In this document: positions 30,806 to 59,498 of the stretch, piece by piece
Layout: each line of letters starts with the position of its first letter
How positions within the stretch are numbered: the stretch's first letter is position 1
Source of the DNA: a virus
Lineage: Duplodnaviria > Heunggongvirae > Uroviricota > Caudoviricetes
Reading direction: 5' to 3' (one strand)
IMG/VR virus record: IMGVR_UViG_3300010280_000442
Coordinates: 1 to 64,000 of that record
Length of the DNA stretch: 64,000 nt
Made by a program: the position numbers and the translations under genes
Notes under the pieces: model-generated
The model's database searches: none
Seen by the model: only the letters and a program-made list of their open reading frames with translations
Told to the model about the DNA's origin: nothing

Positions 30806-30809
30806 CCAT

Positions 30810-40544: not shown

Positions 40545-41020
40545 CAGCTTCCACCTCCCAGCAGATCCTCCATCTCATCCACCGATCCGTCACGGCTATT
40601 TGTATCCGCAATAATCCGGCTCCGGGAGGAAGGTGTCAGGCCGAACTGCTCGGCAAACCGGTTCATAATTTTCAGATAGGTCTGGGCAATGCTCACTTGT
40701 GGCACCTGCTGCCAGTAGCCGGATGGTGTCTTCACAATGGAGCCATGCTGAGTAATAAACTCCTCTGCTTCCTTCCACCGGGCGTATGCCTGACAGTAAC
40801 CTGCAAAGGCCGCCATGTCTACCTCTGTCAGGATGCCTATCTGCTCCATCTGCTTCGCAAGCCGCCTCCATTCCTTTTTTGCTTCCGGCTCCAGCCACTT
40901 TGGACAAGAAGGCGCTTTCTTCGTTGGCTTTGGTTCGCTGTTATTAAGCGGCCTCTTTCCCGGATTTCCTTCCAGTTCCTTAATTGCAGTCGGCGTTGGT
41001 TTTCTTCCTCTTGTTGCCAT
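40544..41020 (-). CDS. terminase small subunit (P27 family)
   Basis: ATRGRKPTPTAIKELEGNPGKRPLNNSEPKP...FAGYCQAYARWKEAEEFI is typical of P27-family TerS. Start at ATG MATRGRK with RBS GAGGGGAGGG. Confidence 0.7.
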   Translation of the reverse strand: MATRGRKPTPTAIKELEGNPGKRPLNNSEPKPTKKAPSCPKWLEPEAKKEWRRLAKQMEQIGILTEVDMAAFAGYCQAYARWKEAEEFITQHGSIVKTPSGYWQQVPQVSIAQTYLKIMNRFAEQFGLTPSSRSRIIADTNSRDGSVDEMEDLLGGGS

Positions 41021-41182
41021 TCGGCATCCCTCCCCTCTCATCAAAATAGGTAAAGAAAAAGGCTGCCAGCGTCAGCCGATAGCCTCAATGATAATCTATA
41101 TTAAAATGGATTCTACGACAGACACAGCCCTCTGCGGACTGTGTTGTTCTTGCTTTTATGCGTCGGGGTTAGCTTCCTTCCA

Positions 41183-41347: not shown

Positions 41348-41394
41348 TTTCAAATCCTCTCTTTCGTTTTTGTGGTCGCCCCGCTAGGCTGTTT

Positions 41395-41475
41395 CCCTTT
41401 GGTTGTGTGTATATTACCGTCACATGCGAAGAATAGCAAGTTATACCTTCGCTATAAATACACCAAAGATCGTAC
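41395..41475 (-). promoter_or_regulatory. conserved early-promoter unit, copy 1 (TTGCTA-N17-TAATAT with extended conserved flanks)
   Basis: Plus strand reads GTATATTACCGTCACATGCGAAGAATAGCAAGTTATA.... Confidence 0.5.
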
Positions 41476-41549
41476 CGGATAATCGGGCATTATATACAAA
41501 CGGCAAGGAGCCGGATGGCCAGCTCCCCATGCGCATGGTTTCTGGAATG

Positions 41550-41759
41550 TCAGCTTTCCAGGACTGCGGTAATCTTGAACCGTTTATTGAACTGCGCCGC
41601 CGTGATGGTGGCGTCGTCGCTGCCGTCATCTGCCCCAAAGAACACCTGGACTTTGCCGTTGCAGGTATTCGCCACACCGCATTTGCCGGTCTTGGTTTCC
41701 CTTATCTCGATGGTGTGTGCGGTATTTTCCGCTTTGACCAACTTTTCGAATTCCGTCAT
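41550..41759 (-). CDS. hypothetical small protein
   Basis: RBS GGAGGAGG; 69 aa. Confidence 0.45.
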   Translation of the reverse strand: MTEFEKLVKAENTAHTIEIRETKTGKCGVANTCNGKVQVFFGADDGSDDATITAAQFNKRFKITAVLES

Positions 41760-41808
41760 ATCAAATCCTCCTCCAAATTAATGCTGATTTTCCTTGCCAG
41801 TCCTACGG

Positions 41809-42030
41809 TTATTTTTCCAGCGTAACGATCAGTGTATTTTCTGAGATGGTGTCATCTGGATTTCGGAGTTGCCAGTTTACTGTATAACTTGTTTCATCCC
41901 ATTCATTATGCCGAAAAAGCTTCAGTGTTTCCTTTTTGATGTATTTAAGTGCCTCAACTCTGACCAGTTTTTGCTCTAACAGTTCCGCCTCATTGATTTC
42001 AATGCCATTAATTTTGTAAGTATACTTCAT
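41809..42030 (-). CDS. hypothetical small protein
   Basis: RBS GGAGGA; 73 aa. Promoter-unit copy at 42055-42140. Confidence 0.45.
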   Translation of the reverse strand: MKYTYKINGIEINEAELLEQKLVRVEALKYIKKETLKLFRHNEWDETSYTVNWQLRNPDDTISENTLIVTLEK

Positions 42031-42054
42031 CTCTGTGTCCTCCGTTTGCTTTGT

Positions 42055-42140
42055 TTTCCTTTTCGGTGTCTGTATATTACCGTCTTGTGCGAAGGATATC
42101 CAGTCAATTCTGCATCATAAATGTGACAAAGATGACGCCC
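42055..42140 (-). promoter_or_regulatory. conserved early-promoter unit, variant copy (TGGATA at the -35 position)
   Basis: TGTATATTACCGTCTTGTGCGAAGGATATCCAGTCAATTCTG. Confidence 0.4.
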
Positions 42141-42206
42141 TATTATCGGGCAATATAGACACTGATAACACAGAGAAAACAGCCCCTTTCGGAGCTGCTC
42201 CGCTGT

Positions 42207-42494
42207 TTATTGTGCTGCTTCCTGCAATGCCCAGGCTATTGCGTGGCCCTCATCCCAAAACTCAACTGCGCTGACCGCCGCAAGTCCGATGGTGCCTTCG
42301 CAACTCAAATCATCATCCAGATGCTCGTAAACCGCAGCGAAGTAGCAAGGCTTGTTCATTCCATTGAAGAAGTGGCCCGCCATAATCACCTTATCTCCGA
42401 AGTTCAGTACCTTTCTCCAAATGCACTCCAAATTCTCTGACGTGGTCGGATTAGGCAGTTTGTATTTTTCTGCCCTCTTTGTCATTTCACTCAT
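42207..42494 (-). CDS. hypothetical protein
   Basis: RBS AAGGAGG; 95 aa. Promoter-unit copy at 42520-42620. Confidence 0.45.
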   Translation of the reverse strand: MSEMTKRAEKYKLPNPTTSENLECIWRKVLNFGDKVIMAGHFFNGMNKPCYFAAVYEHLDDDLSCEGTIGLAAVSAVEFWDEGHAIAWALQEAAQ

Positions 42495-42519
42495 CGTGGC
42501 ATCCTCCTTGTTAGGGTTT

Positions 42520-42620
42520 GTTCCCCTTTTGTTGTGGACATATTACCGTCTCTCCTCACATTTATCCAGTCAATTGTGAGTTGTAATCTGCACAAATATC
42601 TCCGGCGAAATCAGGTCAAT
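42520..42620 (-). promoter_or_regulatory. conserved early-promoter unit, variant copy
   Basis: GGACATATTACCGTCTCTCCTCACATTTATCCAGTCAATTGTG. Confidence 0.4.
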
Positions 42621-42626
42621 AATACG

Positions 42627-42821
42627 TTAATTCAACGCATCAATAATTTCCTCCACTATATCCTTTGCATCCCCAGAAACACTGCATCCGCTGGTCTCGT
42701 ATTTGCTGAGAAGTCCCTGCAAAAGAGGTTCATCCATAGGAATATCCGGAAACCAAACTTCATACCCTGTTTGCTCATTCTTAAAAAGCATCGCTACTAA
42801 TGCCATCCCATCCATATTCAT
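42627..42821 (-). CDS. hypothetical small protein
   Basis: RBS AAAGGAGA; 64 aa. Promoter-unit copy at 42845-42950. Confidence 0.4.
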   Translation of the reverse strand: MNMDGMALVAMLFKNEQTGYEVWFPDIPMDEPLLQGLLSKYETSGCSVSGDAKDIVEEIIDALN

Positions 42822-42844
42822 AATCTCCTTTTAATTTGTGGGGT

Positions 42845-42950
42845 TCGTTCCCCTTCGTTGTGACTGCATATTACCGTCTCTTCGCACATATATCCAGTCT
42901 TTTCTGTATCATAATCTGCACAAATATCTGCGGCAGAATCAGTGCAGGAT
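42845..42950 (-). promoter_or_regulatory. conserved early-promoter unit, variant copy
   Basis: GACTGCATATTACCGTCTCTTCGCACATATATCCAGTC. Confidence 0.4.
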
Positions 42951-43066
42951 ATACGGTCACAGTTGGGGCGCATTTGCCCTTTGTGGGGCTTTCCTCTTGA
43001 ATGGACAAACACATCGAGGGGCGGTTTTCCGCCCCTCTGTGCCCGCCCTGTGCGGCTGTGTTGGGC

Positions 43067-43516
43067 TTATTCTTCTTCGTCCCAATCATCCTCTTCTTCC
43101 CAGCAGTCCTCTTCCTTCTCGTCCCAGCTGTCATCCACATCCTCCTCCGCGTCCTGGAAGTCCCACATATCTTCGGTAGGCATCTCCCTGAGCGCCGGGG
43201 TTCCTTCGATGTAATCGGCAACCGCACCGGTCAGCTGGTCGAGGATCGCATCGTAGGCCCTGTCGTTTTCAATTCCCCAGATGGCATCCACCAGTTCCCT
43301 GATCTCCTTGTTGCCCTTCGCCCGCAGGAAGCGGGCCGCTGGGTTGCAGGTTTCTTTACCGTACTCAACCCCAATGTGGTCGCCGTCGTTAAAGCAGCGG
43401 TATCCGATCCTTGCCATTGCCCTGGTAAGCTCCCCCGCGAGGTTCTCCGCCTTGCCGCTTACCGGTACCAGTTCCTCAAAAAGTTTATTGATTCTTTCAT
43501 CGTTCTTCGTAATCAT
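43067..43516 (-). CDS. hypothetical protein with extremely acidic Trp-containing C-terminal tail
   Basis: RBS AAGGAGGA before ATG MITKND. C-terminus EDVDDSWDEKEEDCWEEEDDWDEEE. Confidence 0.5.
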   Translation of the reverse strand: MITKNDERINKLFEELVPVSGKAENLAGELTRAMARIGYRCFNDGDHIGVEYGKETCNPAARFLRAKGNKEIRELVDAIWGIENDRAYDAILDQLTGAVADYIEGTPALREMPTEDMWDFQDAEEDVDDSWDEKEEDCWEEEDDWDEEE

Positions 43517-43539
43517 GGTGTTATCCTCCTTGTTTTTTG

Positions 43540-43625
43540 GGTGTTCCCCTTTGGTTGTGTGTATATTACCGTCATGTCCGGAGAATAGCAAGTTATATCC
43601 GCGCCATAATGTACACAATCATTTG
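43540..43625 (-). promoter_or_regulatory. conserved early-promoter unit copy
   Basis: TGTATATTACCGTCATGTCCGGAGAATAGCAAGTTATATCCGCGCCATAATGTACACAATCA. Confidence 0.5.
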
Positions 43626-43761
43626 CCCCCGGAATTGGCACATTTACAGCATATTATGTATAGAAAAACGGACAGAGGAAAGCGGCCGGTGATTGCTCTT
43701 CCAGCCGTTTTCCTTTGCCTGTTTATTGGTTCTGTGCTTTCTCAGGAGGTCCGCCCAAGCC

Positions 43762-44004
43762 CTACAAAATCCCTTTCTCTTTCTCATCCCAGATATGTCC
43801 GGCGGCGTCCACATACAGCCGAAGGTCTTCTTCCCTGTCGTAAGTTTCGTAAAGGTAATTGACCATACCGGTCGCCCGGAAGGTATATGCGTAGGTGCTT
43901 CTGTACCAATGGCAGCCGTTATAGTCGATTTCAAAAGGAAACTCTTTTTCGCTTTGGTATTTGATTTCGCCGTATCCGAATTTGTTGTCTTTTGTTTGTT
44001 TCAT
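43762..44004 (-). CDS. hypothetical small protein
   Basis: Start at ATG MKQTKDN with RBS GAAAGGGG; 80 aa. Confidence 0.45.
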   Translation of the reverse strand: MKQTKDNKFGYGEIKYQSEKEFPFEIDYNGCHWYRSTYAYTFRATGMVNYLYETYDREEDLRLYVDAAGHIWDEKEKGIL

Positions 44005-44009
44005 GGCTT

Positions 44010-44095
44010 TCTGCCCCTTTCGTTTTGGTAGCTGTATATTACCGTCGTTTGGAACATATAGCAAGCGGCCACATGTACCAAACATTCACGACAGG
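44010..44095 (-). promoter_or_regulatory. conserved early-promoter unit copy
   Basis: TGTATATTACCGTCGTTTGGAACATATAGCAAGCGGCCACATGTACCAAACATTCAC. Confidence 0.5.
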
Positions 44096-44108
44096 GATTG
44101 TGCGCCTT

Positions 44109-44396
44109 TTACTTCTGTGAAATCAGTGCCATAGGGCCTTCGGAATTATAATACTCCTCAATATACTGGCTGCCATCCTCGTTGGTTACCACTGCCGGAT
44201 ACCGTACTTTCTTTCCGTATTTTGAGAGAATGTCAGCGGCGATATCTGCAATCTCCCCAATAAACTCCATGTCCCAGGCCAGTTCCGGCTCTTCACACAA
44301 AACCTTGCACATTTCCATAACTGCGTTGTGAACCTCATCAATTCGGGCAGCCTGCCCATCATCCAGTTCCAACTCTTCTAATTCATCATCATACAT
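44109..44396 (-). CDS. hypothetical acidic protein
   Basis: Start at ATG MYDDELEEL with RBS AAAGAGAGG; 95 aa. Confidence 0.45.
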   Translation of the reverse strand: MYDDELEELELDDGQAARIDEVHNAVMEMCKVLCEEPELAWDMEFIGEIADIAADILSKYGKKVRYPAVVTNEDGSQYIEEYYNSEGPMALISQK

Positions 44397-44419
44397 TTTC
44401 GTTTGCCTCTCTTTCCGGG

Positions 44420-44510
44420 ATGGTCCCTTTGCGGTGATACATATTACCGTCACGTCCCGGTAATAGCAAGTCAATTCTGTTCCATAAATGTACAAAATAT
44501 TCGTACTGAA
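44420..44510 (-). promoter_or_regulatory. conserved early-promoter unit copy
   Basis: ACATATTACCGTCACGTCCCGGTAATAGCAAGTCAATTCTGTTCCATAAATGTACAAAATATTC. Confidence 0.5.
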
Positions 44511-44521
44511 CTCTGTCGCAT

Positions 44522-44986
44522 TTATGATTCGGCGGCTGCGTAAAAAACTGGAATCCCTATGGATTCATCCTCAATTCCAAGTTCCTCACACATCCCCTCC
44601 AGCATCGCCCTGCTGTAACAGTGCAGGTAAAGATTATATTCCTTCTTCCGTGTATTCATACGGAGCCAGTAAAACCCGTACTCTCCCATAAGGTAAGCAT
44701 TGTATTCCACACCACTATCTGCGCCAACAGCCTCCGCCGATTTCTGGCAGAACCTCCCGACCTCATTCAAATTCGCAAACTCCTGTGTGAACGCATTATA
44801 GACAGCATCGAATTCCGCCAGCAACTCCGGCGTCTCCAATTCCTTGTGGATCGGCCACACTGTATTCCACCAGCGCCATCCGTCATGGTCGGCGCGGATA
44901 TAGCCCACCTCGCTATTTGGCCTGCTGTCCACAGAATCCAGCCATGCTTGTCTGAAAAATAAATGTTTCTGTAAAAGTTCTCTCAT
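44522..44986 (-). CDS. hypothetical protein (154 aa, Trp-rich)
   Basis: ORF with weak RBS; no recognisable motif. Confidence 0.45.
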   Translation of the reverse strand: MRELLQKHLFFRQAWLDSVDSRPNSEVGYIRADHDGWRWWNTVWPIHKELETPELLAEFDAVYNAFTQEFANLNEVGRFCQKSAEAVGADSGVEYNAYLMGEYGFYWLRMNTRKKEYNLYLHCYSRAMLEGMCEELGIEDESIGIPVFYAAAES

Positions 44987-45044
44987 ATAAAAAACGTTTC
45001 TTTCAAATTACTGTGGGGTGACCGCAGCCACCCTCATCTTTCTT

Positions 45045-45227
45045 TTACTCTGCCATCTCTCCAAGGGACCTCACCTCATAGCGGATCAGCAGTCCGTTGA
45101 TGTCACACCCCCGCCTCTTCTCCGCTTCCTTTTTGCAAGCCTCCGCTTCCCTCTGGGTTGAGTAGATGCCGCTGTACGGCACCCACCTTGCCCCCTTTTT
45201 TCCGCCTCTGCAAAATACCTGGTACAT
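45045..45227 (-). CDS. hypothetical small basic protein
   Basis: RBS AGGAGGG; 60 aa. Confidence 0.35.
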   Translation of the reverse strand: MYQVFCRGGKKGARWVPYSGIYSTQREAEACKKEAEKRRGCDINGLLIRYEVRSLGEMAE

Positions 45228-45260
45228 CTCAAGCCCTCCTATGTTGTTCTGCCTTAGTTT

Positions 45261-45452
45261 TCATCTGGATTTCCGGCCCAAGAGGAATGCCTGTTCCAGC
45301 ATCGCCTCAATAGCTCCGACTGAAATGTCCAGGAAGTCCTCGCTGTCGCTCATGCGGTACTCCAAATCCCCGCGCTGCTCTATAGTGTAGGATGCTTTCT
45401 TTGCGATCTCTAAAAGTGCCTCGGCCTGCTTTTTTGTTATGTTCTTCATCAT
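45261..45452 (-). CDS. hypothetical small protein
   Basis: RBS AAGGAGGG before ATG MMKNITKK; 63 aa. Promoter-unit copy at 45490-45575. Confidence 0.4.
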   Translation of the reverse strand: MMKNITKKQAEALLEIAKKASYTIEQRGDLEYRMSDSEDFLDISVGAIEAMLEQAFLLGRKSR

Positions 45453-45489
45453 GGTAAAGCCCTCCTTGTATTTCCGCTTAGGCTTCTCT

Positions 45490-45575
45490 CCCTTGCGTTG
45501 TGGACATATTACCGTCACGTTCCGATAATAGCAAGTCAATTTTGCGCCATAATGTTCACAAATATCAAAAGCAGA
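45490..45575 (-). promoter_or_regulatory. conserved early-promoter unit copy
   Basis: GACATATTACCGTCACGTTCCGATAATAGCAAGTCAATTTTGCGCCATAATGTTCACAAATATC. Confidence 0.5.
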
Positions 45576-45598
45576 AACTGTATAAATTATGGCGCCTT

Positions 45599-45961
45599 CT
45601 ACTTTGAGGGTCCGCCATTTTTCTTTCCTAATTCATAAAACGCTTTGGCAATTTCGGTGCGATTCTTATCCATGAAAAGATCCCTGCACCTAAAACAGAA
45701 TTCTTCATTTTTATGCTCCAGCTGCTTAAATTTTTCTCCGCAGATTACACAGAAACTGTTTTTGTATTGTTCTCTCACATGACCGGATAGTTTCACGCCG
45801 CAGTGCGGGCAAAAAGAATTCCCTTTTGCTGTTTCCGATCCACATGCGGAGCAGCAATAATGTTCAACGTCCCTTTCTACCCATTCCTGAAACTTTGTAC
45901 CTCTGTCCACGCACTCTTCAAGGACTCTTTGTCTTCTCCAATAATGTTTAATATATGCCAT
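45599..45961 (-). CDS. Zn-ribbon protein (multiple CxxC pairs)
   Basis: CCSACGSE...CPHCG...CVICGEKF...CFRCRD. RBS AGGAGG. Promoter-unit copy at 45980-46060. Confidence 0.5.
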   Translation of the reverse strand: MAYIKHYWRRQRVLEECVDRGTKFQEWVERDVEHYCCSACGSETAKGNSFCPHCGVKLSGHVREQYKNSFCVICGEKFKQLEHKNEEFCFRCRDLFMDKNRTEIAKAFYELGKKNGGPSK

Positions 45962-45979
45962 GCTCTTTTCCTCCTGGTT

Positions 45980-46060
45980 TTAACTTTTTCTCTTTGTATG
46001 TGCATATTACCGTCACGTCCCGGTAATAGCAAGTCAATTCTGAGCCATAATGTTCACAAT
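45980..46060 (-). promoter_or_regulatory. conserved early-promoter unit copy
   Basis: GCATATTACCGTCACGTCCCGGTAATAGCAAGTCAATTCTGAGCCATAATGTTCACAATCATCC. Confidence 0.5.
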
Positions 46061-46175
46061 CATCCAGCCAGATATTTGGTACATTTATTCTCCGAAATTG
46101 ACTTGATAATATCTGCTTTTAGAGCGAATATACACACACCGAAAGGAAAACACACCACACACGGAGGGAACAAAC

Positions 46176-46430
46176 ATGGCAAAGAAAAACTACACCGAAA
46201 TCGAAAAGATCATCGAAAAACGCATCGCGGAGCTTGAGGAAGAATACGAACTCGACAATGACGACATCGAGGAAATCAGGACGGAAGCCTACAAGGAAAA
46301 CGGCTGGAACTACGACCCCTTCCCGCTGGAAGAAGAAGAGGAACCGGAAGAAGAGGAAATTTTCTACGGCTACCGCAGCCTTGAAGACCAGCTTTGGGAA
46401 GTTGGGATGAGCATGAGGGATTTCCTTTAA
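46176..46430 (+). CDS. small highly acidic protein (candidate DNA-mimic / anti-restriction-type protein)
   Basis: 84 aa, very acidic (…PFPLEEEEEPEEEEIFYGY…). Plus-strand promoter-like AATTGACTTGATAATATCTGC at about 46088-46120. Confidence 0.5.
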   Translation: MAKKNYTEIEKIIEKRIAELEEEYELDNDDIEEIRTEAYKENGWNYDPFPLEEEEEPEEEEIFYGYRSLEDQLWEVGMSMRDFL

Positions 46431-46558
46431 AGGAAACCCTCCCCAAAAAAGGGGCAAGCCGCCCCGCCGCCCATGAGGGCGGTCTCTCTCGTGTGTGTTT
46501 GTTATATAGTGCCGGATTCCCATCGAAAACTTTGTGTACTTTATGCAGCCGAATGTTC

Positions 46559-46635
46559 TTGATAATATTCCATTCTGACGGTAATATGGCTACAATGGAA
46601 AAGGGTCTCGGATTATCCGGGGCCCCCGTTTCCGT
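46559..46635 (+). ncRNA. candidate tiny plus-strand transcription unit A (TTGATA-N17-TAATAT promoter, about 40-nt transcript, hairpin)
   Basis: TTGATA 46559-46564, TAATAT 46582-46587, then GGCTACAATGGAAAAGGG, hairpin CGGATTATCCG and GGGGCCCCC, then GTTTCC. Paralogous to 50422-50496. Confidence 0.3.
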
Positions 46636-46848
46636 ATCAGCTGAAGTTTACCATATTGGCTGTCCGGCATATTTTTTTATAATCGCCTCCGCGGAAACTG
46701 ATACTGCGGGAATGCCGTACCTTCCGGTTCAGAACCCGTTTATTCATGGATATCCCCCTACGAAGCTCCCCACGGAAGCTGTATGCGCCTTTGCCTCTGA
46801 TCCAGCAGTTACGCTTTACCGCAGCCGCTCCCTGCATTGCTTTCTGCA

Positions 46849-47043
46849 TCACGTTTCCTCCCACGCCTTCTGTGCGATCCGCATCCTGTTTTTCGCTCTT
46901 GAATGCTTTTTCAGGTTTCTTTTCCAGCGGCGGATTGTTTCCGCCCTGTGATGGTTCCTTGACCATGTATACTCATCCAGCACATAGCCTCCGCCGTGTT
47001 CCATTTCCCCATAAGCGGGCATCCGCCTGTGTCCGTTTTTCAT
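46849..47043 (-). CDS. hypothetical small basic protein
   Basis: Strong RBS TAGGAGGCGG before the ATG; 64 aa, Arg/Lys/His-rich. Confidence 0.35.
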   Translation of the reverse strand: MKNGHRRMPAYGEMEHGGGYVLDEYTWSRNHHRAETIRRWKRNLKKHSRAKNRMRIAQKAWEET

Positions 47044-47178
47044 TTCCGCCTCCTATTCCGCCTGTGTCCCGTCATCCATCCGGAAGACCACCAGCCTTCC
47101 CTGTGTCCATATGAATTTTTCCAGCATCCAAAACCGCTTCTTATATTTTTCATCAATTTCGGCCGCAGGTCTGCAAAG

Positions 47179-47646
47179 TTATCCCTCCAGCCACCAGCTT
47201 TCCTTCATTGCGGCCCATTCCATCAGTTCTTTGCGTTCCGCCATGCCTGCGTCCTCCAAAGCTTCCCATGTGCCGCAGGACTCACATATGGTAATGTCCG
47301 CCCTTCGGCTGAGGGCAAGCAAGCGGTTATCCGGTGCGGCTTTTCTTCCGCACCTGGGGCAACGTGCGCCCCTGTGTCGCTTTCTCCCGATCAGTTCAAT
47401 CGTAGCCTTTGCCTCGGATTCCGCCGCGACTCTGTGGCATCTGTCCGCTCCGTAAGCCACGTTTAAGGAGCTGCCATTGTCCCATGAAACAAGCACGTTG
47501 CCAGCGTCATCGACGCCCCGGCAGGTTCCCTGCAGTCCGGCCGGCATTTTGCAGTAGGGGTCATTCATCTCATCTAAAACGAGCCGGCAGCCGCCGGGGT
47601 AATCCCGCCGAAGACGCTCCAGTTCTTTTTTATCTGCAAAAATCAT
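47179..47646 (-). CDS. DUF4314-like protein
   Basis: YPGGCRLVLDEMNDPYCKMPAGLQGTCRGVDDAGNVLVSWDNGSSLNVAYGADRC matches my recollection of the DUF4314 consensus. C-terminal Cys pairs CPRCG...CESCG. RBS GGAGGAG. Confidence 0.55.
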   Translation of the reverse strand: MIFADKKELERLRRDYPGGCRLVLDEMNDPYCKMPAGLQGTCRGVDDAGNVLVSWDNGSSLNVAYGADRCHRVAAESEAKATIELIGRKRHRGARCPRCGRKAAPDNRLLALSRRADITICESCGTWEALEDAGMAERKELMEWAAMKESWWLEG

Positions 47647-47649
47647 CGC

Positions 47650-48321
47650 TTACTCCTCCCCGTCCGTGCATTTCGTTTTTCCTTCCCGTAGCTGAAGGTA
47701 GATATTCACATACCGGTCCCGTTCTGCGCCTTCACTGCCCGCCATGCATTTCAGGTAAAAATCCTCTGCCGCTTCCCTGCTGTCGTATACCTCGGTTTTT
47801 CCATAACAGGTCACTTTGATTTCTTCTTTACCAGTCCCTCTGGTCAGGCTGCATTCGCCAAGCCTCTCAATGGCGGCCTTCCTACCAATGCTATCCGCAA
47901 GCGCCTGCTCCAAAATGTGGATCGGGAAATGAAAATCTTTATAGCCATCCTTCAGTACCTTATAGTAGGATGGGTACGGCTCCGCCAGCCTGCGGCCGTC
48001 CGCCATGATGTAGACCATCGCTGTCAGCGTTTTCGGTTCCTCGCCGTCCAGAGGGAACACCTCCACCGGCAGGTCTTTCTTGTAGTAGTAGGTGGGGAAG
48101 CCTTCATAGCGGTCAAGGTTTCTTTCGTCCCTCTCGGAAATCTCCCACACCAGAACCGGCGTGTTCTTTTTCTCATTCGGTTCGATGGTGGCATGCACCT
48201 TGAACAAGAGCTGCCAACCGTAAAGGATCGCCGTCCCCACGATCTTTGCGTCCGGAGTGCGCTCCTTCATCTGTTCCACCGAAAGGTTACTGCCGTAAGC
48301 AATGTAATATTTTTTCTCCAT
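47650..48321 (-). CDS. AIG2-like / gamma-glutamylcyclotransferase-family protein (paralogue 1)
   Basis: N-terminal YYIAYGSNLSVEQMKERTPDAKIVG (YGSNL motif) and later YEGFPTYYYKKDL. Start ATG MEKKYY with RBS AAAGGAG. Confidence 0.7.
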   Translation of the reverse strand: MEKKYYIAYGSNLSVEQMKERTPDAKIVGTAILYGWQLLFKVHATIEPNEKKNTPVLVWEISERDERNLDRYEGFPTYYYKKDLPVEVFPLDGEEPKTLTAMVYIMADGRRLAEPYPSYYKVLKDGYKDFHFPIHILEQALADSIGRKAAIERLGECSLTRGTGKEEIKVTCYGKTEVYDSREAAEDFYLKCMAGSEGAERDRYVNIYLQLREGKTKCTDGEE

Positions 48322-48344
48322 AAAACTCACGCTCCTTTGTCTTG

Positions 48345-48435
48345 TTTCCGCCGCCTTGGCGGTATGTTATTAATCACTCTTTCTGCGAATAATAGCAAGC
48401 GGATTCGCCGCCATATATCTCACAAATATGTCTGG
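48345..48435 (-). promoter_or_regulatory. conserved early-promoter unit, subfamily with ATTAAT -10
   Basis: GGTATGTTATTAATCACTCTTTCTGCGAATAATAGCAAGCGGATTCGCCGCCATATATCTCACAAATATG; shares AGAGTGATTAATA-CATACCGCC with the copy at 51695. Confidence 0.45.
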
Positions 48436-48450
48436 CCCGTTTTGTGCAGT

Positions 48451-48996
48451 TTACAGCCTCTGGAATTCCCGGATATATGCTTTCGCCGCTTTGACGCCGA
48501 TGCTGTCCGAAAGCCCTTTATCAAGGATTTCCACGTCAAATCCCCAATGGGCATATCCGTCGTCCAGCAGCCTGTAGTATTCCATCCCCGGTTCCCCAAG
48601 CAGCCGTTCCTCATGCAGGACATACGCCATGCACTGCTTCTGCCCCTTCAGTCTGCCGCCCCGCAGCGTGGTAACAGGAAGCTGGAAATAACGCTTATAA
48701 TAATACTTGGGATAGCCTTCATACCGGTTCAGCAGGGCCTCATCGAATTCGCTGATTTTGTACACCAACACCGGCACATAGCAGTTGGCGTCCTGCTCGA
48801 TAGTGGCGTAAAACCCGGATTTACTCTTTTTGAACAGGAGCCGGTAGCCATGGATTTTGGCTGTGCCGGCCACCTGCGCGTCCGGGCAGCGGACGGACAT
48901 CCGTTCCAGCGACAGGTTGCTTCCATAGGCAAGGTAAAACAGGCTGGGTTTGCGGGAAGGGCCGCCGCAAAGTTCAAAACGTTTCCAATCAGGCAT
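48451..48996 (-). CDS. AIG2-like / gamma-glutamylcyclotransferase-family protein (paralogue 2)
   Basis: LFYLAYGSNLSLERMSVRCPDAQVAG and YEGYPKYYYKRYF. Start at ATG MPDWKRF with RBS AAGGAAGG; overlaps the stop of the upstream 85-aa ORF. Confidence 0.65.
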   Translation of the reverse strand: MPDWKRFELCGGPSRKPSLFYLAYGSNLSLERMSVRCPDAQVAGTAKIHGYRLLFKKSKSGFYATIEQDANCYVPVLVYKISEFDEALLNRYEGYPKYYYKRYFQLPVTTLRGGRLKGQKQCMAYVLHEERLLGEPGMEYYRLLDDGYAHWGFDVEILDKGLSDSIGVKAAKAYIREFQRL

Positions 48997-49246
48997 CCCT
49001 CTCACCGCCTTCCTTAATCTCCTCTGCTTCAAACTCCACATCCACGAAATCCTCCGCCTCAAGGATGATCTGGCTGTTATGCCACCAGTCGCTGACGGTC
49101 TGCACCGCGTCATCCACAGTGGACTCCTTCAATTCCGACTCATGGACGAGGACCTTCCGTTTGAGGGTTTCGGTGATCGTAACCTGAAAGGTTCTGCCTG
49201 ACGGCTGTGTCTGGTTTTCGATGTTCTGGTTTTTATTATTTTTCAT
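48989..49246 (-). CDS. hypothetical small acidic protein, translationally coupled to GGCT paralogue 2
   Basis: RBS GAAGGAGG; 85 aa. Confidence 0.4.
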   Translation of the reverse strand: MKNNKNQNIENQTQPSGRTFQVTITETLKRKVLVHESELKESTVDDAVQTVSDWWHNSQIILEAEDFVDVEFEAEEIKEGGERDA

Positions 49247-49325
49247 GGTGTCTACCTCCTTCTCCTACCACCTAAAGGGCGGTTGCCCGCCCGGAGGATT
49301 CCCGTTTCCGTTTTAGGTGGTGGGG

Positions 49326-50270
49326 TTATGCCATCCTGTTCCGCCATGCGCTGTTGCCTTCCATATTGGCGAGGAAGAAGTCCCTTGCCGTTTTGAACTC
49401 GTCCCCGATGAATCCCAGCCGGAGCATCCAGCACCGGAATGCGTAGGCTTCGTTTTCCGTCTGCTGGGGCTTAGGGCTTGCGAACCGCACCTGCTTAGCA
49501 AGCTGGCTGATTGCGAGGCAAAGCTGGATCATCGCTTTCAGCTGGCCAGCGTGCATGCCGTTCTGTTTTCCGTCCGCCGGTGCGTCGAATTGGAAAAGCC
49601 GGAATTCGATTGTGCCTTTGGTAAAGGTTGCGTGGAGGTTGGTCATGTGATAGCGGCTGTCGTTGTAGTGATGAGTCCTGCCATATTCGCATCCCTGGCT
49701 CTTGTACCAGACATCCGCAAGGGCTTCCATGGTCTTGGGCTTCTTTTTGTTGACCTGCTCCAGGAATCTTGGGTCAACCGTGCGGCAGTATCTGCTCTGG
49801 CGGCCTCGGTCTACTTTGATCGCTTTGGCAATCTGTGTTTCATGCGCCGCCATGATGTTCACCAGGTTTCGAATGGTCTGCGGGGTGTGTCCTTTCGCTC
49901 CGATGTGAATGTGGACTCCACAGCCTCTGGAGGCGTCACTCTTCATTCCGCTTTTGCGAAGGGTACGAATAAGCCCCTGCAGAAGCTCCATATCCTCGTA
50001 GGTAAGGATTGGGGTAACCATCTCGCATTTCTGGCTGTCTGGTCCGCTGATGCTCACATCCCTCTGGAATTTCCATTCCCGGCCCTGCTGGTCCCATGCG
50101 CTGTAGGTTTCGTATCCATTGCGGCGGGCGGTGTACTCACTCCGGTAGGTTCCAAAGTAAGCGGCGGCTTTCTCAGCTGCTTTCTGGCGGGTAATATTGT
50201 TGCCCTCGACCTCCACTCCGAAGGTCTGTTTCTTCATGTTCTCAATCTGGATTCTGGTGCTTTCTTTCAT
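49326..50270 (-). CDS. putative amidoligase (Amidoligase_2-like, glutamine-synthetase-related fold), paralogue 1
   Basis: My assignment rests on shared C-terminal block FRCWMLRLGFIGDEFKTARDFF (compare RIWLVRIGMDGDEFKKTRKIL in the neighbour) and on the neighbourhood with AIG2 cyclotransferases, which Pfam describes for Amidoligase_2 in Firmicutes. Start ATG MKESTRIQ with RBS AAAGGAGA. Confidence 0.55.
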   Translation of the reverse strand: MKESTRIQIENMKKQTFGVEVEGNNITRQKAAEKAAAYFGTYRSEYTARRNGYETYSAWDQQGREWKFQRDVSISGPDSQKCEMVTPILTYEDMELLQGLIRTLRKSGMKSDASRGCGVHIHIGAKGHTPQTIRNLVNIMAAHETQIAKAIKVDRGRQSRYCRTVDPRFLEQVNKKKPKTMEALADVWYKSQGCEYGRTHHYNDSRYHMTNLHATFTKGTIEFRLFQFDAPADGKQNGMHAGQLKAMIQLCLAISQLAKQVRFASPKPQQTENEAYAFRCWMLRLGFIGDEFKTARDFFLANMEGNSAWRNRMA

Positions 50271-50309
50271 GGTCTTTATCTCCTTTTCCTTGTCGGTCGT
50301 CGTTTTCCC

Positions 50310-50395
50310 TTTCGGTATGTGCATATTACCGTCAGGTGCCGACTATATCAAGTTAATTCGGAGCCATAATGTACACAAACATTTCAGCAAAAGAT
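50310..50395 (-). promoter_or_regulatory. conserved early-promoter unit copy
   Basis: GTGCATATTACCGTCAGGTGCCGACTATATCAAGTTAATTCGGAGCCATAATGTACACAAACATTTC. Confidence 0.45.
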
Positions 50396-50421
50396 TGTGT
50401 ACATTACGGGAGAAAAGACCG

Positions 50422-50496
50422 TTGATAAATGTGCGTTTCAGAGCTAATATGGCTATAATGGAAGAGGGGGCTCTTAATTTTGCGGCCCCCATTTTC
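50422..50496 (+). ncRNA. candidate tiny plus-strand transcription unit B (TTGATA-N17-TAATAT, about 40-nt transcript, intrinsic terminator)
   Basis: TTGATA 50422-50427, TAATAT 50445-50450, GGCTATAATGGAAGA, hairpin GGGGGC (50466-50471) ... GCCCCC (50485-50490) then ATTTT. Confidence 0.35.
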
Positions 50497-50499
50497 GGT

Positions 50500-51663
50500 T
50501 CAAAGCGCCGCTTCTACTTCTGCGGTTCCTGCCGTGTCCACAGTGGCTTCCAAAGACTGCGACGGCTCTCCGGGTTCCATACTCCCGGTCTGTGCCTGCC
50601 CCGACGCAGCTTCTTCCTTCGCCGCCTTCAGCGCGTCCCGTTTCTTCTGATTTTTAATCCTTGCCTTTTCCGCATCTGCCGGAGTGCGGAAAGCGGTGTG
50701 TCCGCCGAGGTTCTCCATCAGGATTTTCCGGGTCTTCTTGAACTCGTCACCGTCCATGCCGATCCGCACCAGCCAAATCCTCATGGCGTATTTCTCATTG
50801 GTATCATCCACAGCTTTTGCCTGGATGCGCTTCTGGTTCAGCGCCTGCTCATTCATCAGAACCGCAAGATGTCCGTAGGCGGTCAGATGCTCCATATCGG
50901 GGGCCTCGCCAAAACCAGTAAACCGAAGTTCCTCCGGGGTGATGGTCAGGCCGTAGAGGCTCTTGCCATGCTGTGTTTCATAATCCCCAACCATCTTGAG
51001 GAAATTCGCCCTGCTGAAAGTGCAGGAGTCATCCTTAAGCGTCTCCACCAGTTCCTCATCCACACTGAAATGGCCTCCGGTCGCTTTGTTGATCAGTGCG
51101 CCGCGGCTGTAGATCAGGTTGATAAGGTTGCGGAGGGATGTTCCCGTATGCCTGCCTATCGAAATAGGGAATGCCATGTTCATGTCGATGGCGTCCGCCT
51201 GTGCCGCGGCTTCCTCTTCAATCTCCTGCTGATACTCAGCGTCGGAAACCGTGTCTTCCGCTTCGTCCTCCACAGCCGCTTCCATCGGCTCTGCCCCACT
51301 CTCCGTTTCCGGCTCTGTGTCTGTCTCCGCCTGCTGCTGGCCTTCCGGCTCCGTCCCTACCGTTTCCTCTGGCACGGCGCTGTCGGCGGCAGTTCCTACC
51401 GTCACCTCAATCGGCCCTGCCTGGGCTTCCTCGCTTACGATCTCTCCGTCTCCGATCAGCCCTTCTTCCATAAGGGTCTTCAGGATAGCCTCATCCGCTT
51501 TGTTCTCATCAATAAAAAGGTCGCCGCTGCGGTCAATCAGGTAGTCGCCGACTTCGTATGCGTACAGCGGCGCCCGCGTGTACATAGGATGGATACCGGT
51601 CAGCTCTCCCAGCCTTTTTGCCAGGATCCTTCTCTCGTTTACGTTCTTTTTAAATTTCAGCAT
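50500..51663 (-). CDS. amidoligase-like protein, paralogue 2 (divergent, with acidic low-complexity insert)
   Basis: Shares the C-terminal YAMRIWLVRIGMDGDEFKKTRKILMENLGG block with 49326-50270. Central E/A/T-rich region. RBS GAAAGGGG. Confidence 0.5.
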   Translation of the reverse strand: MLKFKKNVNERRILAKRLGELTGIHPMYTRAPLYAYEVGDYLIDRSGDLFIDENKADEAILKTLMEEGLIGDGEIVSEEAQAGPIEVTVGTAADSAVPEETVGTEPEGQQQAETDTEPETESGAEPMEAAVEDEAEDTVSDAEYQQEIEEEAAAQADAIDMNMAFPISIGRHTGTSLRNLINLIYSRGALINKATGGHFSVDEELVETLKDDSCTFSRANFLKMVGDYETQHGKSLYGLTITPEELRFTGFGEAPDMEHLTAYGHLAVLMNEQALNQKRIQAKAVDDTNEKYAMRIWLVRIGMDGDEFKKTRKILMENLGGHTAFRTPADAEKARIKNQKKRDALKAAKEEAASGQAQTGSMEPGEPSQSLEATVDTAGTAEVEAAL

Positions 51664-51694
51664 CGTATATTGCCCCTTTCTGTCCCGCCCGCTT

Positions 51695-51790
51695 TTTCTT
51701 TGTCCTCCGGCGGTATGGTATTAATCACTCTTTTATCGGAAAATAGCAAGTCAATTCCGCGATAATTATCAGAACCTACCTATTGCACAA
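51695..51790 (-). promoter_or_regulatory. conserved early-promoter unit, ATTAAT -10 subfamily
   Basis: GGTATGGTATTAATCACTCTTTTATCGGAAAATAGCAAGTCAATTCCGCG. Confidence 0.45.
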
Positions 51791-51902
51791 ATTCCTTCGG
51801 CACTGGCTGCGCAGATTATGACGGCCAGCCGCAATGCCCTTATGTAAGATGGCATCGGCCAGCCGGGTTATCCCAACCCAGCCGGCCAGCGCCATTCTTC
51901 AT

Positions 51903-55293: not shown

Positions 55294-55542
55294 TTACACA
55301 CGCATGACCTCGGAAAACGGGACAAAAAAGGAGCCGAACAAAAAGCCCGACTCCCACGTATCTTCATCCTTTTCATCCCCGGTGATTTCCGACAAAGGCT
55401 TTTTCGTAATCAGATACCACTGTGGCTCTTTTCCTCCCATGGATGCCAGCACCTTATCCTCCGCCTCGTCAATCGCATGTACACAAATACCTCCCGCATT
55501 GCACACGGGAAACACCCCGATGATCTTCAATGCTTCACTCAT
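55294..55542 (-). CDS. hypothetical small protein
   Basis: RBS GGGAGGAGAG before ATG MSEALKII; overlaps the stop of the upstream gene by 8 nt. Confidence 0.3.
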   Translation of the reverse strand: MSEALKIIGVFPVCNAGGICVHAIDEAEDKVLASMGGKEPQWYLITKKPLSEITGDEKDEDTWESGFLFGSFFVPFSEVMRV

Positions 55543-56059: not shown

Positions 56060-56086
56060 CCGCCTTTCCCTTCAGACATTTTCTGT

Positions 56087-56392: not shown

Positions 56393-56940
56393 TGGTACAG
56401 CCCCCTTTCTTTCTCCGCGGCCTCATGTTGCGCCGAAACGCCCCCGTTTTTCACAAAAAAGGTTAAAAAACAGGCAAAAAACGGGTCGGTCCCTCTGCGC
56501 CCCAAAACAGATTTTTATTTTTGCGGGTTCTTGTTTCCTAATACGGATTTCATTTTGAATAAAAATATCCGGAACAAACAAAAACGCATGGAAAATCAAC
56601 GGTTTTCACCGATTTTTCCACACGCTTTGGTTCATCCCGAATCTAATATTTCCGGGGAACCGGCTGTCCTGCCGCGCCTCTTATCCTCATATCTCATTTT
56701 GCGCCGAAACTGCCAGACCCCCGGCCTATCAAATTCGCGGATTTTTACGTTTGAGGGGGCGGCGGTCTCCGCGGCACTTCACCACAGAGAAGTGAACCCG
56801 GCCCCCGGCGGGCCCTTTCCGCCATAATGTACACAAACAAAACCGCAAAAATCTGTGTAGATTATGGGATCGGATTTGCTGGATATATTCCGATTTCAGA
56901 GGTAACATGACCATACTTCAAAGAAAGGAGGCATGAACCT

Positions 56941-57712: not shown

Positions 57713-57734
57713 AATAGTGAGCCAAGAGCTCGAT

Positions 57735-57885: not shown

Positions 57886-57911
57886 GCAAAAGAAACAGCA
57901 GGAGTCACAAC

Positions 57912-59497: not shown

Positions 59498-59498
59498 T

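What the first reader, a model, noticed from the sequence alone, without database searches (positions are those of the whole stretch)
41380..51800. At least 14 copies of one ~90-bp promoter unit, each driving a single small gene
Upstream of nearly every small minus-strand gene from 41 to 52 kb there is a copy of the same element. Read on the minus strand it is TGTACATTATGG ... AATTGACTTGCTATT -N12- GACGGTAATAT(G/A), that is TTGCTA-N17-TAATAT with conserved flanks well beyond the hexamers. Copies: 41395-41475, 43540-43625, 44010-44095, 44420-44510, 45490-45575, 45980-46060, 50310-50395; variants 42055-42140, 42520-42620, 42845-42950; an ATTAAT subfamily 48345-48435 and 51695-51790. One more copy lies in front of serine recombinase 3 (9296-9335) and an upstream half-site at about 56810-56850. 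The genes they drive include the amidoligase/GGCT set, acidic Ocr-like candidates and Zn-ribbon proteins. A near-identical promoter in front of every gene, rather than operons, resembles T4-type early promoters. The extended conservation (TGTACA palindrome, GACGG within the spacer) suggests one regulator or sigma-accessory factor sets a global early switch, with an integrase also under it. Candidate regulators are the sigma-r4-HTH/Zn-ribbon proteins at 55535-56392.
Basis: seen in the sequence. Interest (0 to 1): 0.65.

Follow-up and report, generated by a model that had tools for sequence, protein, structure and literature searches.

The report
Repeated phage promoter cassette, 17 copies
A prophage of a gut Clostridia bacterium carries 17 copies of one ~100-base promoter-like unit in front of its small accessory genes and its integrase. 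The same unit recurs in hundreds of related gut phages, so it is a real, lineage-wide and apparently undescribed regulatory module, but of a familiar kind.

Summary
The repeat is real. A profile search finds 17 copies in the window. Twelve lie on the minus strand in the 41.4-51.8 kb array and one lies before the first serine recombinase. The window is a prophage, and the array sits between its DNA methylases and the small terminase.

The unit has sigma-A promoter geometry: a -35 of TTGMTA or TGGATA, a 17-nt spacer, G at -14, a -10 with A-11 and T-7, and A at +1. A U-poor leader of about 36 nt follows, then a Shine-Dalgarno site and the ORF start, at a median of 44 nt from the -10.

The unit occurs in 111 of 120 genome loci and 120 of 120 viral loci retrieved by pattern. 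It also occurs in 56 of 60 viral loci chosen through the ParB-methylase alone, where it always lies on the terminase side.

Not supported:
- a conserved TGTACA palindrome
- the rule of one gene per unit
- a hairpin or ssDNA promoter
- a MITE
- any named regulator

TGACGG is subfamily-specific. The timing of expression (early, constitutive or factor-dependent) is undetermined. I file it as a new member of a known kind, the multi-copy phage promoter families.

The parts
51700..51790 (-). Unit, type 2. It has the shared upstream half and -35, but AAAGAGTGATTAATACCATACCGCC in place of TGACGGTAATAT. It precedes the 387-aa amidoligase-associated gene (51663-50500).
   Evidence: nhmmer E 2e-4 over 51729-51770; type-2 motif; PHROG 2443 hit of the cargo
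50289..50388 (-). Unit, type 1 (TTGATA-17-TAATAT). It precedes Amidoligase_2 (50270-49326), DpnD/PcfM (49246-48989) and GGACT (48996-48451).
   Evidence: nhmmer E 6e-25; Pfam
48334..48432 (-). Unit, type 2. It precedes GGACT-2 (48321-47650), DUF4314 plus Zn ribbon (47646-47179) and two small basic ORFs. The operon ends at hairpin 46609-46632.
   Evidence: nhmmer E 2e-12
45975..46069 (-). Unit, type 1. It precedes the double zinc-ribbon protein (45961-45599) and lies back to back with the plus-strand unit at 46067.
   Evidence: nhmmer E 2e-21; Pfam DZR
45473..45569 (-). Unit, type 1. It precedes DUF6900 (45452-45261) and ORFs of 60 aa and 154 aa.
   Evidence: nhmmer E 1e-24
44407..44505 (-). 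Unit, type 1. It precedes an acidic 95-aa ORF (44396-44109).
   Evidence: nhmmer E 5e-20; pI 4.05
44003..44091 (-). Unit, type 1, with a divergent upstream half. It precedes an 80-aa ORF (44004-43762).
   Evidence: nhmmer E 3e-13
43529..43628 (-). Unit, type 1. It precedes an acidic 149-aa ORF (43516-43067), followed by a terminator-like hairpin at 43037-43016.
   Evidence: nhmmer E 1.5e-23; cassette homology runs from the stop codon to the unit
42838..42933 (-). Unit, type 1 with a TGGATA -35. It precedes a 64-aa ORF (42821-42627).
   Evidence: nhmmer E 2e-18
42507..42605 (-). Unit, type 1 with a TGGATA -35. It precedes Nmad4 (42494-42207), followed by a terminator-like hairpin at 42201-42176.
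   Evidence: nhmmer E 5e-18; Pfam
42039..42138 (-). Unit, type 1 with a TGGATA -35. It precedes ORFs of 73 aa and 69 aa, followed by a hairpin at 41529-41504.
   Evidence: nhmmer E 6e-22
41377..41475 (-). Unit, type 1. It is the last cassette, a 53-aa acidic ORF (41347-41186) directly ahead of the small terminase. This position is conserved in related phages.
   Evidence: nhmmer E 1e-21; cluster 7 in 10 loci; same position in phage NatCom_42228
9276..9340 (-). Unit core (-35 to leader, without the upstream box). It lies after the lysin terminator and before serine recombinase 3, whose ATG is at 9243.
   Evidence: nhmmer E 1e-11; sequence; 17 units before serine recombinases in other genomes
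46067..46166 (+). Plus-strand unit. It precedes the conserved acidic 84-aa gene (46176-46430), the only array gene on the opposite strand.
   Evidence: nhmmer E 1e-13; same arrangement in 12 loci; 268 homologues of the cargo
46523..46603 (+). 'Orphan' plus-strand unit with no ORF downstream. Its -10 is followed by GGCTACAATGGAAAAGGG and then hairpin 46609-46632, which also ends the convergent minus-strand operon.
   Evidence: nhmmer E 1e-15
50388..50468 (+). 'Orphan' plus-strand unit, back to back with the minus-strand unit at 50388. It faces hairpin 50466-50490, the terminator of the 387-aa gene.
   Evidence: nhmmer E 5e-4
56845..56936 (+). Plus-strand unit (TGGATA-17-TAACAT) that precedes the SymE/AbrB-fold 61-aa gene (56941-57126).
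   Evidence: nhmmer E 1e-13; Pfam SymE_toxin
56817..56838 (-). Isolated upstream half (TTTGTGTACATTATGGCGG) without a core promoter, back to back with the unit at 56845.
   Evidence: sequence; weak nhmmer hit

Best explanation
The units are sigma-A (housekeeping sigma-70 type) promoters that belong to one promoter family of a Heliusvirales-like lineage of temperate Clostridia phages.

Anatomy, shown by the sequence:
- a conserved upstream box at about -66 to -49 (A..TTTGT....TATG)
- a -35 of (C)TTGMTA or TGGATA
- a 17-nt spacer
- G at -14
- a -10 with invariant A-11 and a well-conserved T-7 (TAATAT here)
- A at +1
- an A-rich, U-poor leader of about 36 nt, a strong Shine-Dalgarno site and the ORF

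Inferred working: each unit starts a short transcription unit of 1-4 genes, about half of which end at a hairpin. The region between the DNA methylases and the small terminase is therefore run as an array of self-contained expression cassettes rather than as part of the long early or late operons. The same promoter type also serves the other genes that must be expressed on their own, namely the first serine recombinase and the SymE-like gene.

Cassette content and order differ between related phages, while the amidoligase end, the reversed acidic gene and the last cassette before terS are kept.

My committed guess for timing is that host RNA polymerase can use these promoters as soon as the DNA is in the cell. 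That would serve establishment and counter-defence functions and the integrase. The conserved upstream box would be the likely handle for a still unidentified phage or host factor. Timing and regulator are inferred, not shown.
For: Repeat and statistics.

Promoter geometry and context:
- 236 of 258 units have an ATG ORF of at least 30 aa starting within 160 nt, at a median of 44 nt after the -10.
- With a Shine-Dalgarno filter the median is again 44 nt, and the leader is 48% A and 7% T.
- 92% of units in multi-unit viral loci share one strand.
- Independent gene calls on the source contig match the cassettes.

Sigma-A-type constraints:
- In 92 distinct units collected from 80 loci anchored only on the ParB-methylase, G-14 and A-11 are invariant. 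A-8 and T-7 carry about 1.5 bits, and A+1 about 1 bit (58 of the 75 units).
- The -10 variants TAATAT, GAATAT, CATTAT, TAAGAT and TAACAT all keep A-11 and T-7.
- The -35 variants show compensation: TTGA 74, TTGC 96, TGGA 113, but TGGC only 18 (Fisher P 1e-14). This is as expected if at least 4 of 6 matches to TTGACA are needed.

Lineage specificity:
- Units were confirmed in 111 of 120 genome loci and 120 of 120 viral loci.
- 92 of the 111 genome loci carry homologues of this prophage's proteins.
- Units are present in 56 of 60 methylase-anchored loci with at least 5 kb downstream. They lie only on the terminase side, plus one reversed copy at the SymE position.
- Three annotated Ca. Heliusvirales phages carry units, two of them checked for position: before the amidoligase in both, and in one also before the last gene ahead of terS and weakly next to the integrase.

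Cassettes:
- Cargo clusters and shuffled order.
- blastn homology blocks run from the stop codon to the unit.
- Terminator-like hairpins follow about half of the cassettes.
Against: - There are no transcript 5' ends or reporter data.
- A generic sigma-70 consensus scan scores the units only 8-9 of 12, and promoter-like hits in the region are no more frequent than in shuffles. Core strength may therefore depend on an extra factor.
- The type-2 copies (51770, 48432) have no convincing sigma-A -10 at 17 nt.
- Two plus-strand units have no gene to drive.
- The -35 conservation in the unbiased set is partly imposed by my anchoring regex.
- Copies within and between related phages are not independent, so the Fisher test overstates significance.
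- Units are absent from the replication side, so they are not the phage's general early promoter.
- The last unit sits where a late promoter would be expected.
Confidence: 0.62

Rival explanations
1. Factor-dependent promoters. The units would be weak on their own and fire only with a phage-encoded activator or sigma-like late regulator, for example the conserved HTH/zinc-ribbon proteins at 55535-56392. That would make the array and terS a middle or late regulon.
For: The core is mediocre, 8-9 of 12. A conserved box at -66 to -49 lies where class I activators bind. The last unit lies directly ahead of terS here and in NatCom_42228. The Zn-ribbon/HTH genes are core genes just upstream of the methylases in most related loci.
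Against: An integrase and a SymE-like gene under a late promoter would be odd. The -35 compensation and the A-11/T-7/G-14 pattern fit the housekeeping sigma. The candidate proteins have no sigma or known activator domain. Their presence does not discriminate loci with units from loci without.
Confidence: 0.2
2. Constitutive 'moron' promoters. The cassettes would be expressed from the resident prophage, for lysogenic conversion or defence, and would not be part of an infection programme.
For: The promoter-gene-terminator layout between core modules is the classical moron signature. Expression of a serine integrase alone is harmless in a lysogen (established knowledge). The units are outside the early and late operons.
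Against: The clear defence-type morons of this prophage do not use the unit: Abi_2, Fic, CptIN with its RNA, and MazF. The cargo families (Amidoligase_2, GGACT, DpnD/PcfM, DUF4314, Nmad4) are ones known, from my own knowledge of the Aravind-group surveys, from phage and conjugative-element entry functions. Seventeen unrepressed promoters in a lysogen would be costly.
Confidence: 0.13
3. Structured nucleic-acid element. The unit would fold as a hairpin, either as an ssDNA or N4-type hairpin promoter, as an Frpo-like leading-region promoter, or as an RNA processing site, with the -35 in the loop.
For: In this window 6 of 17 copies have stems of at least 5 bp, of different sequence, flanking the -35 (permutation P about 0.01). 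Several type-2 copies elsewhere also do. The upstream box is partly complementary to the -10/+1 segment (sequence).
Against: There is no excess in 216 copies from other genomes, 5.6% against 7.0% permuted. Mean folding z-score is 0.00 for 395 units. No stacked covarying column pairs were found. Units occur on both strands. There is no Rfam match.
Confidence: 0.03
4. Mobile or recombination element. The unit would be a MITE-like repeat, or the homology 'linker' or site through which cassettes are exchanged.
For: Cassette order differs between phages. Homology breakpoints are about 2x enriched near units against random positions.
Against: The enrichment disappears when compared with intergenic DNA only, 20% observed against 25% expected. 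There are no terminal inverted repeats or target duplications. The unit is always oriented with a gene and always lies in the same phage module. All 17 copies lie inside the prophage.
Confidence: 0.02

Closest known systems
T4 (and T5) early promoter families
   Same: Many copies in one phage genome of a host-sigma promoter whose conservation extends beyond the two hexamers, including upstream and initially transcribed regions. They serve many short transcription units of small accessory genes. This comparison rests on my own knowledge.
   Different: Those are virulent coliphages with near-consensus, very strong cores. Here the phage is temperate and its host is a Clostridia bacterium. The core matches only 8-9 of 12, the upstream box is not A-tract-like, and the units are confined to one module.
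Streptomyces phage phiC31 early promoters with conserved inverted-repeat operators (Ingham et al. 1993; Smith et al. 1999; from my own knowledge, not retrievable)
   Same: A temperate phage with a large serine integrase, many near-identical promoters, short transcripts bounded by terminators, and conserved flanking sequence that could be a regulator's handle.
   Different: The phiC31 promoters are not sigma-70-like, and their operators are a defined 17-bp palindrome bound by the repressor. Here the geometry is sigma-A-like and no conserved palindrome exists.
Halovirus HF2 intergenic repeats that carry promoters (PMC8707807, found)
   Same: Repeated intergenic units of tens of bases that contain the promoter of the downstream gene.
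   Different: That is an archaeal virus with an archaeal promoter type, and there is no sequence relationship.
Morons of lambdoid/HK97-like phages
   Same: Promoter-gene-terminator cassettes inserted between core modules of an HK97-type packaging and head gene set.
   Different: Classical morons each have their own unrelated promoter. Here one promoter family is reused 17 times and is kept across a whole phage lineage.
Frpo-type ssDNA promoters of plasmid leading regions
   Same: They are placed before anti-defence and establishment genes of the same protein families. This comparison rests on my own knowledge.
   Different: The defining folded-strand structure is absent, and the units occur on both strands.

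Membership tests
Sigma-70/sigma-A type promoter | -35 hexamer related to TTGACA, with a 17 +/- 1 nt spacer to the -10 | tested here: met
   TTGMTA or TGGATA at a fixed 17 nt. TGGC is depleted (18 against 113, 96 and 74), consistent with a minimum match to TTGACA.
Sigma-70/sigma-A type promoter | -10 hexamer with A at -11 and T at -7, optionally with an extended -10 G at -14 | tested here: met
   A-11 and G-14 are invariant and T-7 carries 1.5 bits in 92 units collected independently of these positions. All -10 variants keep A-11 and T-7.
Sigma-70/sigma-A type promoter | Position and orientation upstream of a gene, with a purine start about 7 nt after the -10 | tested here: met
   The median distance from the -10 to the start codon is 44 nt. 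A is found at +1 in 58 of 75 units and in 100% of 77 secondary units. Exceptions are two orphan plus-strand units and the type-2 copies.
Sigma-70/sigma-A type promoter | Primary transcript 5' ends and RNA polymerase dependence | not testable with these tools
   No transcript or biochemical data were available.
MITE / transposable repeat | Terminal inverted repeats, target-site duplication, and scattered genome-wide copies independent of gene orientation | tested here: not met
   All copies lie inside the prophage. In other genomes 92 of 111 loci carry the same phage genes. In methylase-anchored loci the units lie only in the array. They are oriented with the downstream ORF.
Hairpin or ssDNA promoters (N4 early, Frpo-like) | Conserved intrastrand stem supported by covariation | tested here: not met
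   There is a local excess only in this window (P about 0.01).
Any described RNA family (Rfam 15) | Covariance-model match | tested here: not met
   The only hit in 40-58 kb is Fusobacteriales-1 at 57731-57848, which is unrelated to the units.
Moron (autonomous promoter-gene-terminator insert) | Own promoter and own terminator flanking a non-core gene | tested here: inconclusive
   A promoter-like unit is present for every cassette. Hairpin terminators follow about 6 of the 12 array transcription units. Expression from the prophage was not testable.
Ca. Heliusvirales phage lineage (host element of the units) | Marker genes: TerL, portal, capsid, protease, DNA polymerase I, helicase, nuclease (PMC11283538) | tested here: inconclusive
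   HK97-type TerL, portal, ClpP protease and capsid are present. Three records labelled Ca. Heliusvirales carry the unit. The window itself shows a D5-type primase and no Pol I within 64 kb. No marker-gene phylogeny was made.

The most novel reading that the evidence does not exclude
The units form a phage-private regulon. In this reading the conserved -66 to -49 box is the docking site of a lineage-specific factor, with the conserved HTH/FCS-type zinc-ribbon proteins encoded just upstream of the methylases as prime suspects. This factor would switch the accessory array, the integrase and the SymE-like gene together. The two conserved 'orphan' convergent units would make RNAs of about 45-50 nt complementary to the 3' ends of the amidoligase/GGCT operons, acting as an OOP-like antisense brake. 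This would be a new transcription circuit shared by a very widespread group of human-gut phages.
Probability: 0.2. Interest if true: 0.65.

Novelty: new member of a known kind. Interest (0 to 1): 0.42.

Why it matters
These phages are among the most widespread in the human gut, and none has a characterised transcription programme. A single recognisable promoter module marks their accessory (probably establishment or counter-defence) cassettes and their integrase.

This offers three practical uses:
- a way to find and delimit those cassettes in metagenomes
- a ready set of natural promoters for Clostridia genetics
- a defined DNA bait (the -66 to -49 box plus the core) for finding the regulator

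It does not change concepts, because repeated phage promoters are well known.

Tried and rejected
1. My first viral-contig scan used the wrong spacing, N14 instead of N11. Its single hit (L001) was chance. I redid it.

2. The hairpin or ssDNA-promoter idea was prompted by different complementary blocks flanking the -35 in several window copies. It was rejected for the family by arm permutation, column-pair statistics and folding z-scores.

3. The idea that units are recombination linkers rested on a 2x breakpoint enrichment. This vanished against an intergenic control.

4. The regulator hunt led nowhere:
   - Pfam, PHROG, NCBIfam and PDB sequence searches of 55535-56059 and 56087-56392 gave only weak YacG/FCS-like zinc-finger hints.
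   - There are 7 unnamed homologues.
   - The AlphaFold model has pLDDT 65 and Foldseek finds nothing significant.
   - The presence/absence comparison across 80 loci was inconclusive, because the one apparent 'no Zn protein, no unit' locus has weak units.

5. The 'Ocr-like' cargo claim could not be supported. The acidic 149-aa protein has no PDB relative. The conserved acidic 84-aa protein models as a helical hairpin plus an acidic loop, with no fold match.

6. The operator comparison with the immunity region of phage NatCom_42228 showed different repeats there, TGTGAAGT type.

7. Attempts to fetch DNA beyond the right end of the window, to look for the repressor region, failed in five exact-protein look-ups.

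8. The alternative sigma consensus sequences I recalled (F, G, E, K, H, D, ECF, TcdR) did not fit on inspection. This was a comparison from memory, not a test.

9. Literature searches found no description of these units.

Full report
**Context.** The window is a prophage read on the minus strand.
- Replication and accessory side: D5-type primase-helicase (60251-62680), SAM synthetase, HNH endonuclease, two zinc-ribbon proteins, ParB-N6/N4 methylase (53989-55269) and C5 methylase (51903-54041).
- The small-gene region runs from 51.8 to 41.4 kb.
- Then comes an HK97-type packaging and head module: P27-family small terminase 40544-41044, TerL, portal, ClpP protease and capsid.
- It ends with the tape measure, the lysin and three large serine recombinases.
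- Over the array, the window matches a 390-kb ENA metagenome contig gene for gene (same ORF lengths and order). The conserved 84-aa protein is identical, and independent gene calls on that contig reproduce my ORF list.

**Observation.** The repeat is real and far beyond chance.
- TTGCTA-N17-TAATAT with at most 1 mismatch gives 10 matches, against 0.22 expected.
- GACGGTAATAT gives 12 matches, against 0.03 expected.
- A profile built from seven copies and iterated with nhmmer finds 17 copies.
- Four plus-strand copies were missed: 46067-46166, 46523-46603, 50388-50468 and 56845-56936.
- The half-site at 56817-56838 lies back to back with the last of these.
- Twelve minus-strand units in the array precede 20 ORFs: seven single genes and five groups of 2-4.

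**Anatomy.** With the -10 set at -12 to -7, the unit reads as follows:
- a box at -66 to -49
- a variable block
- (C)TTGMTA or TGGATA at -35 to -30
- a variable spacer ending in TGACGG
- TAATAT
- A at +1
- an A/G/C leader (CACAACCAAAGGGGAAC...), a Shine-Dalgarno site and the ATG

Across all units, the start codon lies a median of 44 nt after the -10. The leader is 48% A and only 7% T.

**Is it a family outside this window?** Yes.
The full-length profile confirmed 111 of them, with 241 units. These are almost all Clostridia (Lachnospiraceae, Oscillospiraceae, Acutalibacteraceae, Desulfosporosinus, Peptostreptococcaceae). The few non-Firmicutes pattern matches were not confirmed.
- 92 of the 111 confirmed loci carry homologues of this prophage's proteins within 8 kb.
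All were confirmed, with 326 units, and 92% of units within a locus share one strand.
- To remove the bias of baiting with the motif, I fetched 80 viral loci through the ParB-methylase protein alone. Of the 60 with at least 5 kb downstream, 56 have units. The units lie only between the methylases and the terminase, plus one reversed copy at the SymE position. None lies in the 10 kb replication side.
- Three annotated Ca. Heliusvirales phages carry units. I checked positions in two of them: a unit lies before the amidoligase in both. In NatCom_42228 a second lies before the last gene ahead of terS, and a weak hit (E 0.12) lies next to the integrase.

**What is conserved, once the bias is removed?**
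- In pattern-baited sets the blocks C-T-K-G-M-T-A, TGACGG, TAATAT, A+1, AAAGGG and the upstream T/G positions all look nearly invariant.
- In the methylase-anchored set, TGACGG falls to 29%, with CAGAGT, TAGAGC, CTGCGG and others as alternatives. The -10 varies as TAATAT, GAATAT, CATTAT, TAAGAT or TAACAT.
- What stays conserved is G-14 and A-11 (2 bits each), A-8 and T-7 (about 1.5 bits), A+1, AA at +6/+7, and several upstream positions: A-66, T-62, G-60, T-52, T-50, G-49 and A-41.
- This is the signature of a housekeeping-sigma promoter with an extended -10 G, plus an extra upstream box.
- The -35 variants are not independent. TTGA, TTGC and TGGA are common (74, 96, 113), while TGGC is rare (18; Fisher P 1e-14). 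That fits a requirement for at least four matches to TTGACA. Relatedness inflates this P value.
- The near-identity of copies within this genome is therefore partly shared descent. The TGTACA palindrome is not a conserved feature: 4 of 17 copies here and 37 of 229 elsewhere.

**Points that argue for caution.**
- A generic sigma-70 scan scores the units 8-9 of 12, and the region has no more promoter-like hits than shuffles.
- Two copies here, and eight elsewhere, form a 'type 2'. They share the upstream half and the -35, but carry AAAGAGTGATTAATAMCATACCGCC in place of TGACGGTAATAT, with no good -10 at 17 nt.
- Two plus-strand 'orphan' units have no ORF. Their -10 is followed by GGCTAYAATGGAARAGGG and then by the hairpin that terminates the convergent operon.
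- The same design, CAGAGGTAATAT-ACAGTAAACTGGAAGGGGG-hairpin-CCCCCATTTTCC, is kept in at least 18 distinct sequences from methylase-anchored loci.
- It would give an RNA of about 45-50 nt complementary to the 3' end of the amidoligase/GGCT/DUF4314 operon. In this window both type-2 transcription units end opposite an orphan unit. I could not test what this does.

**Hypotheses tested and dropped.**
- Hairpin or ssDNA promoter. In the window 6 of 17 copies have perfect stems of at least 5 bp, of different sequence, around the -35 (permutation P about 0.01). In 216 other copies the rate is 5.6%, against 7.0% permuted. The mean folding z-score of 395 units is 0.00, and no stacked covarying pairs exist.
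- Recombination linker. The breakpoint enrichment at units disappears against intergenic DNA. The cassettes are nevertheless real modules. Homology blocks run from the stop codon to the unit, and cassette order differs between phages. Meanwhile the amidoligase end, the reversed acidic 84-aa gene and the last cassette before terS are kept.
- Known RNA family. None matches.

**Cargo.**
- Identified families: Amidoligase_2, two GGACT proteins, DpnD/PcfM, DUF4314, a double zinc ribbon, DUF6900 and Nmad4. The rest are unknowns, several of them very acidic.
- 'Ocr-like' is unsupported.
- Units recur before amidoligase genes (47 units), Nmad4/DUF6900 (20), serine recombinases (17) and the reversed acidic gene (12).
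- The obvious defence morons of this prophage (Abi_2, Fic, CptIN, MazF) do not use the unit.

**Regulator.**
They fall in a PHROG of unknown function with YacG/FCS-like zinc fingers.
- They give a low-confidence model with only non-significant GerE/LuxR-type HTH hints.
- They are core genes of the lineage, so co-occurrence cannot discriminate.

**Verdict.** This is a lineage-wide family of sigma-A-type promoter cassettes, expanded to 17 copies in this prophage.
- The promoter reading is well supported by geometry, context and the pattern of constraint, but it is not proven.
- The temporal class and the factor that reads the upstream box are unknown.
- It is a new member of a known kind, multi-copy phage promoter families such as T4 early promoters, phiC31 early promoters and HF2 intergenic repeats (PMC8707807).
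- I found no description of it in papers on these phages.

Noticed in passing
window 57731-58415 (+): A Fusobacteriales-1 RNA (Rfam RF02920, 93 bits) made of about 36-nt repeats lies directly upstream of a CptIN-family type III toxin gene (57912-58415). The 'cis-regulatory' Rfam family here looks like the antitoxin RNA of a type III toxin-antitoxin pair carried by the prophage.
   Followed up: partly
window 46523-46632 and 50388-50490 (+); L244-L297: 'Orphan' units with no ORF abut the terminator hairpin of the convergent operon. The design is conserved in at least 18 distinct sequences from related phages and predicts an antisense RNA of about 45-50 nt against the 3' end of the amidoligase/GGCT operons.
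   Followed up: partly
window 51700-51790 and 48334-48432 (-); 8 more in L010, L066, L072, L083, L103, L125: A second promoter type shares the upstream half and the -35 but has AAAGAGTGATTAATAMCATACCGCC downstream. A 5'-proximal hairpin with compensatory changes follows (CCGCC/GGCGG, CCGC/GCGG, CCGCC/GGTGG). Several copies also have different inverted repeats around the -35.
   Followed up: partly
leaders of all units, e.g. window 43529-43560 (-): The leaders of about 36 nt are strikingly U-poor (7% T, 48% A; only 4% T at about +4 to +13, i.e. 10-20 nt after the -10). They carry a conserved AAAGGG about 5-12 nt after the start.
   Followed up: partly
window 27100-30810 (+): A low-GC island (0.43-0.44 against about 0.53) on the opposite strand lies inside the structural region. 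It encodes an Abi_2 abortive-infection protein and a Fic/DOC protein with a winged-helix tail. It looks like a defence insert in the tail module.
   Followed up: no
window 17-9396 (-): Three large serine recombinases lie in tandem at the prophage end. Only the first (ATG at 9243) has a unit. It has a roughly 160-aa N-terminal extension before the resolvase domain.
   Followed up: no
window 55535-56392 (-): Two proteins are built from repeated C-x2-C ... (R/K)KFCS-x2-CR zinc fingers that weakly resemble the gyrase inhibitor YacG and FCS fingers. One has an N-terminal three-helix HTH. Both belong to PHROG 2308, of unknown function, and are conserved next to the ParB-methylase.
   Followed up: partly
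window 56941-57126 (+): A SymE/AbrB-fold 61-aa gene is driven by a plus-strand unit, divergent from a 430-nt intergenic region. The same gene type is reported in C. clostridioforme LM41 prophages phi5 and phi13alpha, which also carry amidoligase and GGCT genes (PMC11318856).
   Followed up: no
window 36172-37287 (-) and 58430-59533 (-): A PAPS-reductase-domain protein sits between the portal and the ClpP protease, and the phage encodes a SAM synthetase. With the two methylases, this suggests an investment in DNA modification.
   Followed up: no
window 62677-63237 (-): A PemK/MazF-like toxin gene lies next to the primase. The same pairing occurs in related loci L310, L311 and L314.
   Followed up: no
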